A stretch of 64,000 nt of DNA from Burkholderiales bacterium (GTDB lineage: Bacteria > Pseudomonadota > Gammaproteobacteria > Burkholderiales > JACQAP01). The notes under the pieces are model-generated. The model searched no databases. It was given only the letters and a program-made list of their open reading frames with translations, and was not told where the DNA came from. A program made the position numbers and the translations under genes. The stretch is from assembly GCA_045810225.1 (NCBI GenBank), contig JBJMWI010000176.1, positions 40,583-104,582 on the forward strand. The letters are read 5' to 3'. This document shows positions 12,168-39,087 of the stretch, piece by piece (positions within the stretch are counted from its first letter, which is position 1; every line of letters starts with the position of its first letter).

Positions 12168-13061
12168 TTATGAATGCTGGGGTATTGCATTTTCCGCCGC
12201 GGCAGGGCGATTCGAATTTTTGCGTGAGCCATGACTTTCGGCATAGACCTTGGTGAACTCGGCGCCAAGCAAGAAAATCTGCGAGGAATAATAGACCCAC
12301 ACCAATATCACGACGAGCGCCCCGGCCGCTCCGTAGCTCGATTCCACGCCGCTTTTGCCGATATACAGCCCGATTACGAATTTGCCAAACGAGAACAGCA
12401 GAGAAGTGACCAGTGCTCCAATCCACACATCGCCCCAACTGATCGCAATGCGTGGCAGGAAACGGTAGATCAGCGCAAACAAGACTGTGATGACGGCTAT
12501 CGACACTACGAAATTGACGATATGCAACAGCGCTTCCATGCCTTCGAACCAGCCGGCCCAGTACTTGCCCCACACGGCGATTGCAGTGCTGACCACCAGC
12601 GAAACCATCAACAGGAAGCCGATGGCTAACACCATGCCGATCGATAGCAGGCGCGTGCGTATGAAATGCCACAAACCGGAAATCTTTTGTGTCTCCACTT
12701 TCCAGATGCGGTTCAGATTGCTCTCCAATTCGGCAAAGACCGTCGTTGCGCCGACGATCATGGCCAGAATCCCGAGCAGGCTGGCCAGCGTGCCCTGTTT
12801 TGGTTTTTGCGCGCTCGCCAGCATGCCTTCAATTGCCCTGGCGCCATTTTCTCCGAGCAATCCCCCGGCCTGCTCCATGATGCCTGCATGGGCAGCCTCC
12901 TGCCCAAACACCAACCCGGCCACCGCAATAACAATAACGAGCAGCGGAGCAATGGAAAATACGGTGTAGTAGGACAACGCAGCCCCCATGCTGGGCGCGT
13001 AGTCGGATTGCCAGCTAGTGAACGCCGCCTTTGACAGTTGGAACAGCGTTTTGAGCTTCAT
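12168..13061 (-). CDS. YihY/BrkB-family inner-membrane protein (paralogue 2)
   Basis: 297 aa. See paralogue 1; the same conserved blocks are present. Confidence 0.9.
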   Translation of the reverse strand: MKLKTLFQLSKAAFTSWQSDYAPSMGAALSYYTVFSIAPLLVIVIAVAGLVFGQEAAHAGIMEQAGGLLGENGARAIEGMLASAQKPKQGTLASLLGILAMIVGATTVFAELESNLNRIWKVETQKISGLWHFIRTRLLSIGMVLAIGFLLMVSLVVSTAIAVWGKYWAGWFEGMEALLHIVNFVVSIAVITVLFALIYRFLPRIAISWGDVWIGALVTSLLFSFGKFVIGLYIGKSGVESSYGAAGALVVILVWVYYSSQIFLLGAEFTKVYAESHGSRKNSNRPAAAENAIPQHS

Positions 13062-36025: not shown

Positions 36026-38338
36026 TCATGGTTGTTCATCGATGGCCACGCCGTTGTTCTCACGTCCGTTTGCCGGGCTGCTGCTATGCCGGATGCGAAC
36101 TTGACCATTGAGAAGGCCGCTTGAATAGCGATCGTCACCGCCGCTGTCCAGCAATACGCCAACGCTGTAGACCGGATCGTCGGCCACATAATGGTAGGAA
36201 TTGTCACCGGCTACGCCCTGAGAATCGCCGCTGGACCAGTACATATCATTGCCGCCAGCATCGAACAACCACGCCCCTGACTGTTGCGCGGCGGCGCCCT
36301 GTGCCAGGGATTCAGCACGGTAGAAGTCGTTGCCTGCGCCATCGAACATCATGGCAACCGACTGATCCCAGGCCGCGCCCTGCGCAGCCGCACGCATGGC
36401 CCAATACACATCGTCCCCGGCCAGATCGGAAAACAGTCCGGCAGCCTGATGTGCAGCAAACCCCTGCGTATAGCGTCCGCCGTAGTAGAAATCATTGCCA
36501 CTCGTATCATGCAGCAGACCGGCGCCCCAAAAATAGCCACCGCCCTGGCTGAATTCGCCGCCCTCGTAACGATCATTGCCGGCGAAATCGAGCAAGGCGC
36601 CGAAACCTCCATGGTCGTAGGGCCGAATGCCAAAACCCACACCCTGGCTGAAACTCATGTATGTCGTCGGTGTGCCGTAAGAAGACGGCACCGGGCCGTT
36701 CGCCCGGTACAGATCGTCCCCGCCGAAGTCGATCAGCAGCCCGACACCCGCCGGTCCACCAACGCCTTGGCTCATGCTTTGAGACAGATAGGTGTCCCAG
36801 CCGTCGCCGGCATCAATCAGCACTCCGGCCCCATAAATTCCGGCCCCGGTTGACCAGGCATCGCAGTGATACGTATCCGCGCCTTGCGCATCGAACAACA
36901 AACCAAACCCGAAGGCCCCGGCACCGCAGCCGCCGAGTGCGCTGACGTATGTGTCGTCTCCCGCCATATCGAGCAAAACCGACACCCCGAGCCATCCCGC
37001 TCCTGGTCCGCCCACTTGTGCTTCGTAGCGATCATTGCCAGCGCGATCGATCACGATCTGCGTTTCCAGCGGAACACCGTCGCTCCAGGTGTAGCGATCA
37101 TCTCCGTCAATGTCGATGACCGCATACAGGCGGTCCATGCGGTAATGGTTGGGGCCTGCTCCACCAATAACGATATAACCGCCATCGACTTCAGCGAAAT
37201 CCAAAATTTCCCCGTCCACCATCGCCGCCAGGGCCGCGGGAATCTTGCGTGCGCTCTTGGACGCTTCCGGCACACGGGACGCGGCGATGATGAGCTGATC
37301 GAACGCGTCCAGCAGCGCTGAAAAATCGACTCGCATGCTGGCCTGCATCGCGCGGATGCCTTTCATTGCGTCCCGTTGCTCGATCAAGGTGCGGCTGGTA
37401 GCCGTCTCTTCGAGTAGATAGCGCACGTCACGAAACAATCGTTCACGTGGAGGCGCCGTGCTGAAACCCTCGCGCACCCGCCGGTTCGCTGCTGCAATAG
37501 TCCCGGCGAACACGCTGAGTCCGCCACCGTCTATCGAGTTGGCAGCGACCGGCGACTCGGAATGCATCGAGCTGCAATTGAGCATCAGGATCTCGCACAG
37601 CAGCGGTACGACGCGTTCGCGCGCCTGCCCTGCCGGTTGCATTTCGCCCACAAGCCGATGTTCCCACTCAATCAGCGTGCCGGGATCGGCCAGCGCCTGG
37701 CGGTTCAGGCGCAGTTTGTTGTATCCGTTTTCCTGGCTCGCAAGATCGCCCAGCATTTTTTGCAGGCGTTCGCGTTCCGGCATAAGCGCAGGGGCCGCGG
37801 ACGCGAGCTTTGCCTCCACCATATCCAACCAGACCGGAACGCTACGCGCGGACACTGCCGTAAACGGCACCCGCTGCGGGTAGGCGGCCGGTGTGGCCCA
37901 TTGCTGCAAAGCCCCGACGATGAAATTAACATCGAGCGCTGCGCCATCACGTAGCACGCGTAACGGCAATAGCTGACCGGGCGAAGAGGAGTGCAGCGTC
38001 TCCAGCAGGCGCGCCGCGTTCATTTTCTCCCCTGCCACTGAATCGATTTTATCTCCGGCTTTCAGGCCCGATAGCGTCGCAGGTCCAGCAATGACGTCCA
38101 GGATCACGGGGTTGCCATCGGCATCCTGTCCAAGCGCGAAACCGGCATACGGCACACCTGCCGGTGAGGACTGGGCGGGTGGTGACTCAACGCCCGGGTG
38201 GAAATGCGCGCAGCCGGGAAATAACACCACAGTCACGGCGCACGCGCATAGCTGAAGTAACCGCGCTGCGTGCAGCCTTTGCGCTGGTTCAATACTCGCT
38301 GCTGCTTTCGGTCTGTAGTCACGCGGGCCGGCTGCCAT
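36026..38338 (-). CDS. PDZ domain lipoprotein with a C-terminal array of about 12 degenerate ~26-aa hLhDxxGNDxY repeats (predicted beta-solenoid)
   Basis: Lipobox LFPGC. The PDZ-like segment is ILDVIAGPATLSGLKAGDKIDSVAGEKM. The repeats are listed in the findings. The start is uncertain: the ORF opens at 38401, and internal ATGs at 38350 and 38338 avoid overlap with the divergent chaC. Confidence 0.8.
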   Translation of the reverse strand: MAAGPRDYRPKAAASIEPAQRLHAARLLQLCACAVTVVLFPGCAHFHPGVESPPAQSSPAGVPYAGFALGQDADGNPVILDVIAGPATLSGLKAGDKIDSVAGEKMNAARLLETLHSSSPGQLLPLRVLRDGAALDVNFIVGALQQWATPAAYPQRVPFTAVSARSVPVWLDMVEAKLASAAPALMPERERLQKMLGDLASQENGYNKLRLNRQALADPGTLIEWEHRLVGEMQPAGQARERVVPLLCEILMLNCSSMHSESPVAANSIDGGGLSVFAGTIAAANRRVREGFSTAPPRERLFRDVRYLLEETATSRTLIEQRDAMKGIRAMQASMRVDFSALLDAFDQLIIAASRVPEASKSARKIPAALAAMVDGEILDFAEVDGGYIVIGGAGPNHYRMDRLYAVIDIDGDDRYTWSDGVPLETQIVIDRAGNDRYEAQVGGPGAGWLGVSVLLDMAGDDTYVSALGGCGAGAFGFGLLFDAQGADTYHCDAWSTGAGIYGAGVLIDAGDGWDTYLSQSMSQGVGGPAGVGLLIDFGGDDLYRANGPVPSSYGTPTTYMSFSQGVGFGIRPYDHGGFGALLDFAGNDRYEGGEFSQGGGYFWGAGLLHDTSGNDFYYGGRYTQGFAAHQAAGLFSDLAGDDVYWAMRAAAQGAAWDQSVAMMFDGAGNDFYRAESLAQGAAAQQSGAWLFDAGGNDMYWSSGDSQGVAGDNSYHYVADDPVYSVGVLLDSGGDDRYSSGLLNGQVRIRHSSSPANGRENNGVAIDEQP

Positions 38339-38385
38339 AGGCACGAACATTAGCAGATGTTGTTGCGGCCGGCGCCTGTGGCAAC

Positions 38386-39087
38386 ATGCACTCTGTGACA
38401 ACGAAGTCGAATTTGAAATCGCAAGTCGATCGCGCCTTCCTGGAGAAGGACGGTGTGCGCCAGGCGGTGCGGGATGCCGGACACGGGCATTTGCTTATGT
38501 CCGACCACGACGTGGCTGCCTCGCTCGCCGCAACGCTCGCACTGCATTCCAAAGAAAAGCCGGTCTGGGTATTCGGCTATGGCTCGCTAATCTGGAACCC
38601 GCTGGTGGAATACGCGGAACGCAGGCCGGCGCGCATCCACGGCTTTCATCGCGGCTTCTATCTATGGTCGAAAATCAATCGCGGCTCGCCGAAAATTCCC
38701 GGGCTGGTACTGGGATTGGACCAGGGAGGCTCCTGCGCGGGCATCGCTTACCGGCTGCACGATGACAAATTGGACAGTGAACTGGCATTGCTGTGGCGCC
38801 GGGAAATGTTGATGGGTACTTATCGGCCACGCTGGGTCAGCGCCGATCTCGAAGGCTGCACCGTGCGCGCGATTGCGTTTGTGGTGGACCGCAAAAAGCC
38901 CGGCTACACCGGCCGGCTGCGCGATGAACAAATCGTTTCCATTGCGCTTAAAGCCTCGGGTTACTACGGCTCTTGCGCGGATTACCTGGTCCAGACAGCA
39001 AAAAGTCTGGAGGCGGCCGGCATCGCAGATCAGCGGCTATCGCGCCTGGCAAGAATCGTAGAAACCAAAAGCGCCCGTGTGGGATAA
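38386..39087 (+). CDS. chaC: ChaC-family gamma-glutamylcyclotransferase
   Basis: VWVFGYGSLIWNP ... GFHR.F ... GLVLGLD.GGSC.G.AYRL ... LLWRREM is colinear with E. coli ChaC as I recall it, including the N-terminal DRAFL...AASLAAT region. Confidence 0.85.
   Translation: MHSVTTKSNLKSQVDRAFLEKDGVRQAVRDAGHGHLLMSDHDVAASLAATLALHSKEKPVWVFGYGSLIWNPLVEYAERRPARIHGFHRGFYLWSKINRGSPKIPGLVLGLDQGGSCAGIAYRLHDDKLDSELALLWRREMLMGTYRPRWVSADLEGCTVRAIAFVVDRKKPGYTGRLRDEQIVSIALKASGYYGSCADYLVQTAKSLEAAGIADQRLSRLARIVETKSARVG

What the first reader, a model, noticed from the sequence alone, without database searches (positions are those of the whole stretch)
36026..37123. About 12 degenerate ~26-residue hLhDxxGNDxY repeats forming the C-terminal half of a PDZ lipoprotein
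The last ~365 aa can be parsed into consecutive units with the following sequences:
- AVIDIDGDDRYTWSDGVPLETQ
- IVIDRAGNDRYEAQVGGPGAGWLGVS
- VLLDMAGDDTYVSALGGCGAGAFGFG
- LLFDAQGADTYHCDAWSTGAGIYGAG
- VLIDAGDGWDTYLSQSMSQGVGGPAGVG
- LLIDFGGDDLY...
- ALLDFAGNDRYEGGEFSQGGGYFWGAG
- LLHDTSGNDFYYGGRYTQGFAAHQAAG
- LFSDLAGDDVYWAMRAAAQGAAWDQSVA
- MMFDGAGNDFYRAESLAQGAAAQQSGA
- WLFDAGGNDMY...
- VLLDSGGDDRYSSG...

Each unit embeds an RTX-like GxxGxD core, but the period is 26-28 residues rather than 9. A conserved aromatic follows the Asp pair, and a QG lies mid-repeat. This suggests a beta-solenoid, possibly Ca-binding.

The N-terminal half has a lipobox, a PDZ domain and a ~300-aa helical region. I cannot place the repeat in a named family.
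Basis: partly seen in the sequence, partly recalled or inferred. Interest (0 to 1): 0.6.

Follow-up and report, generated by a model that had tools for sequence, protein, structure and literature searches.

The report
Uncatalogued Asp-ladder beta-solenoid on PDZ lipoprotein
The repeats are real: the C-terminal half of this envelope lipoprotein is predicted with high confidence to be a 12-coil beta-solenoid with one RTX-like Asp/Gly turn per coil, a domain missing from Pfam, NCBIfam and the PDB but found in about 40% of sampled Planctomycetota genomes, with function unknown.

Summary
The gene at 36026-38401 (-) encodes a 774-aa lipoprotein, counted from the ATG at 38350. Its last ~365 residues hold 12 units of hhhD-x-x-G-x-D-x-Y. 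Eleven match the motif exactly, against 0.11 expected by shuffling. Spacing is mostly 26-28 residues.

AlphaFold2 (pLDDT 90, pTM 0.89) predicts a three-strand-per-coil beta-solenoid. It also predicts a degenerate N-terminal coil and a C-terminal cap strand.

No match was found in Pfam (E<=10), NCBIfam or PDB sequences, whether queried with the single sequence or with a profile. Foldseek gave no significant hit against PDB or BFVD. The weak hits are all beta-helices, including the Ca2+-bound MpAFP RIV helix.

The family is large: 3230 clusters at 50% identity. The order signal/lipobox, PDZ, variable helical domain, solenoid is kept across phyla. It occurs in 120 of 301 sampled Planctomycetota genomes (up to 7 matches each) but only 2 of 301 Pseudomonadota.

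All 24 motif Asp residues are conserved in more than 90% of sequences, as are R576, R626, H634, W661 and D662.

My best reading is a Ca2+-stabilised solenoid carrying a conserved binding or catalytic patch, coupled to the PDZ domain. Ca2+ binding and function are inferred, not shown. The scan noted the same family in another genome (e1-4600239). It is a new variant of a known kind, of moderate interest.

The parts
36026..38350 (-). Whole gene from the ATG used by gene callers, 774 aa plus stop. The maximal ORF from a TTG reaches 38401.
   Evidence: P0002, 100% identical, 774 aa
38210..38350 (-). Signal peptide and lipobox (…VVLFPGC, Cys47). The Cys is conserved in >=90% of proteobacterial homologues, with consensus LLxAC.
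   Evidence: Sequence; alignment A1; predicted helix 23-43
37913..38155 (-). PDZ domain (residues ~66-146) of HtrA/RseP type, with no protease domain attached.
   Evidence: Pfam PDZ_2 E 2.7e-5, below the gathering score; PDB PDZ matches; Foldseek to DegS/DegP/DegQ PDZ, prob 1.00, rmsd 1.7 A over 84 columns
37277..37831 (-). All-helical middle domain (residues 174-358). It is poorly conserved between phyla. The Cys252/Cys259 pair is invariant in the proteobacterial clade.
37127..37180 (-). Degenerate N-terminal coil 0 (YIVIGGAGPNHY: D replaced by G and D by N, Tyr kept).
   Evidence: G27/N32/Y34 invariant in A4; strands in the model
36077..37126 (-). Twelve canonical hhhD-xxGxD-xY…QG… coils (residues 409-758), forming the predicted beta-solenoid.
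36602..36706 (-). About 20-residue conserved excursion in coil 6 (RANGPxPSxYGTP…SQGVGxGxR…GG). It is modelled with lower confidence.
   Evidence: 47-residue spacing; S556/Y558/R576 conserved; pLDDT 61-69
36365..36625 (-). Coils 6-9, which carry the residues that are near-invariant but not part of the repeat motif (R576, F600, Q602, Y606, R626, Y627, Q629, H634, W661, D662). This is the candidate functional patch.
   Evidence: 92-99% conserved over 136 representative clusters
36038..36058 (-). C-terminal cap strand (GVAIDEQP), a thirteenth 'hhhD' strand without the rest of a coil.
   Evidence: Strand 765-771; conserved G-h-h-h-D at the family C-termini

Best explanation
This is a secreted, lipid-anchored envelope protein. 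Its C-terminal ~390 residues are predicted to fold into a three-sided parallel beta-solenoid of 12 full coils, plus a degenerate first coil and a cap strand.

Each coil reads as follows:
- strand 1 (h-h-h-h-D)
- a 5-residue arc (x-x-G-x-D)
- strand 2 (x-Y-x-x…)
- a Gly-rich arc
- a short strand 3 (x-Q-G)
- a return arc

Stacking the coils lines up the two Asp residues of every D-x-x-G-x-D arc into a double acidic ladder, and the Tyr residues into an aromatic ladder.

I infer that the arc ladder binds a row of Ca2+ (or another divalent cation), as the GGxGxD turns of RTX beta-rolls and the single RTX-like turn per coil of MpAFP RIV do. On that reading the domain becomes rigid only after export.

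I further infer that the cluster of near-invariant Arg/His/Asp/Trp/Tyr residues on coils 6-9 is the working surface. It would bind, or act on, an envelope polymer or protein. The N-terminal PDZ domain would tether or gate the partner through a C-terminal peptide.

Shown here: the repeats, their conservation, the predicted fold, the architecture and the distribution. Inferred: metal binding, the ligand, and localisation to the outer membrane or periplasm.
For: - Repeat statistics.
- AF2 models with a regular three-strand pattern: pLDDT 86.9 and 90.0.
- All weak Foldseek neighbours are beta-helices. MpAFP RIV (3p4g) gives the highest target-normalised TM-score (TMt 0.40-0.44) and probability (0.47) among them.
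- MpAFP RIV is a Ca2+-bound right-handed beta-helix of thirteen 19-aa repeats, each with one RTX-like repeat (PMC3492233).
- All 24 motif Asp positions, the Gly and the Tyr are invariant or >=90% conserved across Pseudomonadota, Planctomycetota, Lentisphaerota and Acidobacteriota, and across 136 clusters at 50% identity.
- Residues outside the motif are 92-99% conserved: R576, R626, H634, W661, D662, and Y558/606/627.
- The order signal peptide or lipobox, PDZ, helical domain, solenoid is kept across phyla.
- The only other fusion partners found are TPR, HEAT, DUF4912 and DUF3471; no enzyme domain was seen.
- The proteobacterial clade has conserved Cys pairs (252/259 and 475/496), which fits an oxidising extracytoplasmic location.
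Against: - No coordinates were available, so the geometry of the Asp ladder, the handedness and the exposure of the conserved patch were not checked.
- AF2 does not model ions.
- Asp in such arcs can simply cap backbone NH groups without binding metal.
- There is no significant sequence or fold match to any Ca-binding family; PF00353 did not hit at E<=10.
- No gene neighbourhood is conserved in Proteobacteria that might point to a partner.
- No experimental data exist for any member, and none was found in the literature searches.
Confidence: 0.55

Rival explanations
1. The solenoid is an enzyme: a beta-helix polysaccharide lyase or hydrolase, or another hydrolase acting on an envelope or extracellular polymer. 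Its active site would be built from R576, R626, H634, D662 and the Tyr/Trp residues, perhaps with Ca2+ as cofactor. It would stand where PDZ proteins usually carry a protease.
For: The solenoid is the only universally conserved domain, and its near-invariant non-repeat residues are typical catalytic or sugar-binding types. All fusion partners are interaction modules, never an enzyme. 88% of classified microbial PDZ proteins pair PDZ with a catalytic protease domain (PMC6411480). Paralogues are expanded in Planctomycetota, with up to 7 matches per genome. Many beta-helix proteins among the weak fold neighbours are depolymerases or tailspikes.
Against: There is no sequence or significant fold similarity to any known lyase, hydrolase or protease family. 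There are no carbohydrate-utilisation neighbours. The gene is single copy in Proteobacteria.
Confidence: 0.25
2. The solenoid is a metal-free rigid spacer or scaffold. The Asp residues only cap the tight arcs (Asx-type turns), and the conserved residues are structural ladders. The protein merely holds the PDZ domain at a fixed distance from the membrane.
For: Polar ladders (Asn/Gln) and aromatic stacks are common structural features of beta-helices (general knowledge). The Q of 'xQG' and the Q/N six residues later repeat in register. AF2 folds the domain confidently without ions.
Against: Twenty-four stacked carboxylates without counter-ions would be electrostatically costly. H634, W661-D662 and R626 occur once only, not in every coil, which argues for a site rather than a ladder.
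Confidence: 0.17
3. It is an ordinary RTX (hemolysin-type calcium-binding) protein or another already catalogued repeat family.
For: The [AGS]-G-[ND]-D-x-Y core resembles G-x-D-x-U of the RTX nonapeptide.
Against: PF00353 and every other Pfam family fail at E<=10, as do all 37 diverse members. The period is 26-28 residues, not 9. Export is by an N-terminal lipoprotein signal, not a C-terminal T1SS signal. The RTX fragment 7rah scores E 1.6, TMq 0.19/TMt 0.20.
Confidence: 0.02
4. The periodicity is a compositional artefact of a Gly/Asp/Ala-rich, high-GC gene.
For: The local GC content is ~61% and the region is rich in G, A and D.
Against: Shuffles give 0.11 motifs against 11 observed. The motif positions are invariant across four phyla at 44-84% overall identity. 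The AF2 models are confident.
Confidence: 0.01

Closest known systems
MpAFP region IV (Marinomonas primoryensis ice-binding adhesin; PDB 3P4G)
   Same: It is a long single-chain parallel beta-helix of about 13 coils, in which each coil contributes one RTX-like G-x-D-x-U turn, and the turns stack into a row that binds Ca2+ (PMC3492233). It gave the highest target-normalised TM-score (TMt 0.40-0.44) and probability (0.47) among the weak Foldseek hits. Its tryptic peptide IDAGTGNDEIY resembles LLDFAGNDRY.
   Different: Its coil is 19 residues, not 26-28. Foldseek E is 0.29-2.1, so there is no demonstrable homology. MpAFP is a T1SS-secreted giant adhesin with a Thr/Asx ice-binding face. The protein here is a ~750-aa Sec/lipoprotein with PDZ and helical domains and a different conserved patch. 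Ca2+ binding is unproven here.
RTX / hemolysin-type calcium-binding repeats (Pfam PF00353; beta-roll)
   Same: It has a Gly/Asp-rich turn followed by a hydrophobic or aromatic residue that starts a strand, and stacked turns could hold Ca2+ between them.
   Different: There are no tandem nonapeptides and no 18-residue two-turn coil. Positions 1-2 are D-x rather than G-G. There is no Pfam hit and no T1SS signal.
Right-handed parallel beta-helix proteins (pectate-lyase fold, PbH1 repeats, autotransporter passengers, TPS domains, phage tailspikes)
   Same: Coils have three strands and are ~22-28 residues long, with internal polar and aromatic ladders. All weak structural neighbours belong here: Ag43 7koh, HMW1 2odl, HxuA 4i84, VacA 6nyf and tailspikes.
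   Different: No hit is significant (best E 0.057, TMq<=0.36/TMt<=0.44). None of the Pfam beta-helix models matches. The invariant D-x-x-G-x-D-x-Y corner is not a feature of those families. Handedness was not verified.
PDZ-protease families (HtrA/DegP/DegS, Ctp/Prc, RseP)
   Same: The PDZ domain is structurally an HtrA/RseP-type PDZ in an extracytoplasmic protein.
   Different: No protease domain is present. The NCBIfam hits cover only the PDZ segment and lie far below the cut-offs.

Membership tests
RTX / HemolysinCabind (PF00353) | Tandem nonapeptides GGxGxDxUx detectable by the family model | tested here: not met
   Pfam gave no family at E<=10 for the repeat region. None was found in 37 diverse members.
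RTX / HemolysinCabind (PF00353) | 9-residue period (18-residue beta-roll coil) | tested here: not met
   The spacings are 22-28 residues, plus 38 and 47.
RTX / HemolysinCabind (PF00353) | Ca2+ bound by the Gly/Asp turns | not testable with these tools
   No coordinates or metal modelling were available. The G-[ND]-D-x-Y core is similar.
RTX / HemolysinCabind (PF00353) | C-terminal, uncleaved T1SS secretion signal | tested here: not met
   The protein has an N-terminal signal peptide with a lipobox Cys47. Its C-terminus is a solenoid cap strand.
Parallel beta-helix / beta-solenoid fold class | Regular coils of short strands stacked along one axis | tested here: met
   This rests on prediction only. 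DSSP of the AF2 models shows 6-5-(4-6)-5-(2-3) strand/arc units in register with the repeats, at pLDDT 90. All fold neighbours are beta-helices.
Pectate-lyase-like right-handed beta-helix superfamily (PbH1, Beta_helix, NosD, Pectate_lyase_3) | Sequence or significant structural similarity to members | tested here: not met
   No Pfam hits. The best Foldseek E against PDB was 0.057, with none <=0.001. BFVD gave none either.
MpAFP RIV-type Ca2+-bound beta-helix | 19-residue coil xGTGNDxUxUGGxUxGxUx with one Ca2+ per coil | tested here: not met
   The coil here is 26-28 residues. Foldseek E was 0.29-2.1 with TMq 0.33-0.36/TMt 0.40-0.44. This is an analogy only.
PDZ domain | PDZ fold with a carboxylate-binding loop | tested here: met
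   Foldseek prob 1.00 and rmsd 1.7-2 A to DegS/DegP/DegQ PDZ domains. Pfam PDZ_2 E 2.7e-5, 24.8 bits against a cut-off of 27. Many homologues pass the cut-off. The YAGFAL loop is conserved.
HtrA / Ctp / RseP PDZ-proteases | Catalytic protease domain | tested here: not met
   The NCBIfam matches cover only residues ~86-180, at 11-23 bits against cut-offs of 147-800.
Bacterial lipoprotein | Signal peptide ending in a lipobox with an invariant Cys | tested here: inconclusive
   The sequence is …AVTVVLFPGC. The Cys is >=90% conserved, with consensus LLxAC, in proteobacterial homologues. Lentisphaerota members also have a lipobox, while many Planctomycetota members have a plain signal peptide. No dedicated predictor was available.

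The most novel reading that the evidence does not exclude
The D-x-x-G-x-D-x-Y solenoid is a new catalytic scaffold. On this reading it is a PDZ-gated envelope hydrolase or lyase whose active site (R576, R626, H634, D662, Trp/Tyr, possibly with S556 and Y558 of the conserved excursion, and Ca2+) takes the place that a protease domain occupies in almost all other bacterial PDZ proteins. It would be a major, so far unrecognised enzyme family of Planctomycetota, with a rare offshoot in uncultured Burkholderiales.
Probability: 0.15. Interest if true: 0.7.

Novelty: new variant of a known kind. Interest (0 to 1): 0.42.

Why it matters
This is a very large, cross-phylum protein family: 3230 clusters at 50% identity, present in about 40% of sampled Planctomycetota genomes. 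Its only universally conserved domain is absent from Pfam, NCBIfam and the PDB.

It adds a third geometry to the set of beta-structures built from RTX-type Gly/Asp turns: about 27 residues per coil with one turn per coil, beside the 18-residue beta-roll and the 19-residue MpAFP helix.

It also couples that domain to a PDZ domain without any protease, which is unusual among bacterial PDZ proteins.

Defining the domain would improve the annotation of thousands of proteins now labelled 'PDZ domain-containing' or 'hypothetical'. It would also give a tractable model for export-coupled, metal-dependent folding in the periplasm.

Its function is unknown, so the present value lies in classification and hypothesis rather than mechanism.

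Tried and rejected
- Pfam on the whole protein, on the repeat region at E<=10, on the helical region and on 37 diverse members gave only PDZ.
- NCBIfam gave only sub-threshold PDZ segments of proteases.
- PDB sequence search by phmmer and by profiles of the solenoid (A4) and the helical domain (A5) gave nothing meaningful.
- Foldseek with the full-length model was swamped by PDZ hits. I therefore modelled and searched the solenoid alone: no hit at E<=0.001 in PDB or BFVD.
- The search for related loci with the very diverse alignment A3 failed because no stretch was conserved enough. I repeated it with A2.
- Gene-neighbourhood analysis: three long proteobacterial contigs share no neighbours. 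All-vs-all clustering of flank ORFs was noisy because of shadow ORFs in high-GC DNA. The only recurrent neighbour is a YihY/BrkB gene in a subset of PVC loci. The alpha/beta-hydrolase downstream in the window is shared only with very close relatives.
- I looked for informative domain fusions in long Planctomycetota paralogues. Only PDZ, HEAT, TPR, DUF4912 and DUF3471 turned up.
- Four literature searches found no description of this repeat.
- I considered the Asp-box (SxDxGxTW) and FG-GAP/VCBS Ca motifs and rejected them on spacing and fold (own knowledge).
Full report
**1. The observation**

The region lies in a single ORF, 36026..38401 on the minus strand. Gene callers start it at the ATG at 38350, giving 774 aa (P0002, identical to the window). 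All residue numbers below use that numbering.

A regular-expression scan and a hand parse find twelve units whose first Asp lies at 413, 435, 461, 487, 513, 541, 588, 615, 642, 670, 697 and 735.

- Eleven units fit D-x-x-G-x-D-x-[YFH] exactly. The fifth carries a one-residue insertion (DAGDGWDTY).
- The spacings are 22, 26, 26, 26, 28, 47, 27, 27, 28, 27 and 38 residues.
- 10,000 shuffles of the same C-terminal sequence give a mean of 0.11 motif matches (maximum 2), against 11 observed.
- A profile of the 16-residue core finds 12 hits (182 bits), against a mean of 0.35 hits and a maximum of 9.8 bits in 100 shuffles.

The repeat is therefore real and far beyond what composition can give.

**2. 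The protein as a whole**

- *N-terminus.* It is a signal peptide ending in …VVLFPGC. In 36 homologues the Cys is conserved in >=90%, within a consensus LLxAC.
- *PDZ domain, residues ~66-146.* Pfam PDZ_2 scores just below its gathering score (E 2.7e-5). The AlphaFold2 model superposes on the PDZ domains of DegS, DegP and DegQ with Foldseek probability 1.00 and rmsd ~1.7-2 A. NCBIfam hits to HtrA, RseP and related families cover only this segment and lie far below the cut-offs. There is no protease domain.
- *Helical domain, residues 174-358.* This region is all-helical. Its sequence is barely conserved between phyla: the alignment has no invariant column, and a profile search of the PDB gives nothing.
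- *Solenoid, residues 382-771.*

**3. Predicted fold**

Two AlphaFold2 runs used family alignments: full length (pLDDT 86.9, pTM 0.86) and the C-terminal 405 residues alone (pLDDT 90.0, pTM 0.89).

In both, each sequence unit maps to the same secondary-structure pattern:
- a 6-residue strand ending in the first Asp
- a 5-residue arc (x-x-G-x-D)
- a 4-6-residue strand beginning x-Y
- a Gly-rich arc
- a 2-3-residue strand at the 'QG'
- a short return

That is a three-strand-per-coil beta-solenoid with 12 complete coils. Two further elements belong to it. A degenerate coil 0 lies upstream (YIVIGGAGPNHY, where G, N and Y are invariant in the family). The extreme C-terminus (GVAIDEQP) is one more 'hhhD' strand that caps the stack.

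The 47- and 38-residue units are coils with excursions. The first excursion (RANGPxPSxYGTP…) is itself strongly conserved. I could not obtain coordinates, so handedness, the geometry of the acidic ladder and side-chain exposure remain unverified.

**4. Is it a known family?**

| Search | Result |
|---|---|
| Pfam-A (2025 copy), repeat region, E<=10 | nothing |
| Pfam-A, each of 37 diverse members | nothing relevant |
| NCBIfam | nothing for the solenoid |
| PDB sequences, phmmer | nothing for the solenoid |
| PDB sequences, family profile | chance-level matches only |
| Foldseek, solenoid model vs 350,542 PDB chains | no hit at E<=0.001 |
| Foldseek, solenoid model vs BFVD | no hit at E<=0.001 |

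All the weak PDB matches are beta-helices: antigen 43, HxuA/HMW1 TPS domains, VacA, an RTX fragment, RsaA, and the Ca2+-dependent antifreeze region of MpAFP (3p4g). MpAFP gives the highest target-normalised TM-scores (TMq 0.33-0.36/TMt 0.40-0.44) and probability (0.47). BFVD gives only weak tailspike-like hits.

So the fold class is familiar. The domain itself is uncatalogued and has no demonstrable relative of known structure. Four full-text literature searches found no description of it. A survey that classified 93% of microbial PDZ proteins into 12 families, 88% of them PDZ-protease combinations, does not contain this architecture (PMC6411480).

**5. The family**

- *Size.* A word-indexed search found more than 2300 homologues, nearly all 700-800 aa and labelled at most 'PDZ domain-containing protein'. 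An exhaustive HMMER scan of 1.84 billion cluster representatives found 3230 clusters at E<=1e-3 and 1357 at E<=1e-30. The domain almost always sits at the C-terminus of 600-950-aa proteins.
- *Named genome records.* All hits are MAGs. They place it in uncultured Burkholderiales/Betaproteobacteria, some Gammaproteobacteria, many Planctomycetota (Phycisphaerales, Isosphaeraceae), Lentisphaerota and one Vicinamibacteraceae.
- *Prevalence.* In even samples of species genomes it is in 120 of 301 Planctomycetota, often with 2-7 matches per genome, but in only 2 of 301 Pseudomonadota, counting the window's own genome.
- *Within the window's lineage.* It is single copy in the window's genome. It is patchy within the genus: found in 13 of 24 other species, and in 2 of 16 other families of the order (one of them only marginally, E 5.5e-4 with in-frame stops).
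- *Tree.* A maximum-likelihood tree of the solenoid separates a proteobacterial clade from a PVC-plus-Acidobacteriota group (100/100). Several deep planctomycete lineages are apparent paralogues. One 'gammaproteobacterial' sequence nests among Lentisphaerota. The root is unknown, so I make no claim about the direction of transfer.

**6. Conservation and what it suggests**

Across four phyla (alignment A4, 44-84% identity to the window), the D, G, D and Y of every coil are invariant or >=90% conserved. The same holds when 136 representative clusters are aligned to the family HMM, at 91-100%. That amounts to 24 conserved Asp residues in two stacked rows, plus a Tyr ladder.

A second set of near-invariant residues is not repeat-periodic: Q528, Y558, Q569, R576, F600, Q602, Y606, R626, Y627, Q629, H634, W661 and D662, all at 92-99%. 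Because R576, R626, H634 and W661-D662 occur once rather than in every coil, they look like a site on coils 6-9 rather than a structural ladder.

The proteobacterial clade has two conserved Cys pairs. Cys252/Cys259 lie in the helical domain. Cys475/Cys496 lie on adjacent coils. This fits disulfides in an extracytoplasmic protein, though that is an inference.

**7. Context**

Three long proteobacterial contigs share no neighbours with the window or with each other. The alpha/beta-hydrolase downstream of the window gene is shared only with its closest relatives.

In 20 of the 80 fetched loci, nearly all labelled Planctomycetota, a YihY/BrkB-family membrane-protein gene follows directly on the same strand (Pfam PF03631, E 1e-34 to 1e-43). 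These loci span Phycisphaerae and Isosphaeraceae. The window's BrkB homologue is 23 kb away.

Fusion partners of the solenoid elsewhere are one or two PDZ domains, TPR, HEAT repeats, DUF4912 and DUF3471. An enzyme domain never appears.

**8. How it most likely works**

Three things are shown: a secreted or lipid-anchored protein, a predicted 12-coil solenoid, and an invariant D-x-x-G-x-D-x-Y corner. The rest is inference.

The corner is the RTX turn in all but its first two positions: [AGS]-G-[ND]-D-x-Y against G-x-D-x-U of GGxGxDxUx. In RTX beta-rolls, and in MpAFP RIV, stacked turns of this kind bind a row of Ca2+ ions and make folding Ca2+-dependent. MpAFP RIV is a Ca2+-bound right-handed beta-helix of thirteen 19-aa repeats, each with one RTX-like repeat (PMC3492233).

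By analogy, I propose that the double Asp ladder here holds about one divalent cation per coil junction. The solenoid would then become rigid only after Sec export. A rod of 13-14 coils would be about 60 A long, if the usual 4.8 A rise per coil applies.

I propose that the non-periodic Arg/His/Asp/Trp/Tyr cluster is the working surface, for binding or for catalysis. The PDZ domain would supply or gate a partner through a C-terminal peptide.

My estimates:
- solenoid fold: about 0.9
- cation binding: about 0.5
- a specific binding or catalytic patch: about 0.6
- the combined statement: 0.55

The main rivals are a true enzyme (0.25) and a metal-free spacer (0.17). Membership of the RTX family and a compositional artefact are effectively excluded.

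**9. Novelty and verdict**

Its interpretation (solenoid, RTX-like core, no named family) is supported as far as it can be tested in silico.

The domain is a new variant of a known kind: a beta-solenoid built on an RTX-type turn, but with a ~27-residue, one-turn-per-coil geometry and a fixed partnership with a PDZ domain. It is not a new principle.

Its size, its cross-phylum conservation and its absence from curated libraries make it worth defining as a family and worth a structure. Without a function, interest is moderate (0.42). Another first-stage reader noted the same family in a different genome (e1-4600239). That note is not independent evidence.

Noticed in passing
L036:7226-8620, L037:7261-8670, L038:6709-8013, L063:7313-8719 (and 16 further loci): In 20 of the 80 loci fetched, nearly all labelled Planctomycetota, a YihY/BrkB-family membrane-protein gene (PF03631) lies directly downstream on the same strand as the PDZ-solenoid gene. 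Some copies carry a C-terminal MarR/Rrf2-like segment. The linkage is absent in Proteobacteria.
   Followed up: partly
window 12192-13010 (-): The window's own YihY/BrkB homologue (tblastn E 1e-12 to the planctomycete neighbour gene) lies 23 kb from the lipoprotein gene and is not linked to it.
   Followed up: no
L094:2597-5416, L095:79-2895, L089:1211-4606 (Planctomycetota genomes G637, G571, G586): These are variant architectures of the family. One form has the solenoid followed by C-terminal HEAT repeats and no PDZ domain. Another has an N-terminal DUF4912 plus two PDZ domains before the solenoid. TPR and DUF3471 C-terminal extensions occur in P0216, P0263 and P0171.
   Followed up: partly
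P0022, L023, L052 (records): Some MAG labels look inconsistent with the protein's phylogeny. A 'Prolixibacteraceae' record is 82% identical to the window's betaproteobacterial protein. A 'Bordetella parapertussis' MAG sits among uncultured Burkholderiales. A 'Bacteroidia' contig carries the planctomycete-type gene together with its BrkB neighbour. Mis-binning or mislabelling is likely.
   Followed up: no
L033 (Gammaproteobacteria MAG) in the tree: One sequence labelled gammaproteobacterial nests with Lentisphaerota inside the PVC clade (99/93 support), apart from the main proteobacterial clade. This could be lateral transfer or a mis-binned contig. The sequence also has an atypical composition.
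   Followed up: no
window 38338-38401: The maximal ORF (TTG at 38401) overlaps the divergent chaC-like gene start at 38386. Homologues and gene callers support the ATG at 38350, which leaves about 35 bp between the two divergent starts.
   Followed up: partly
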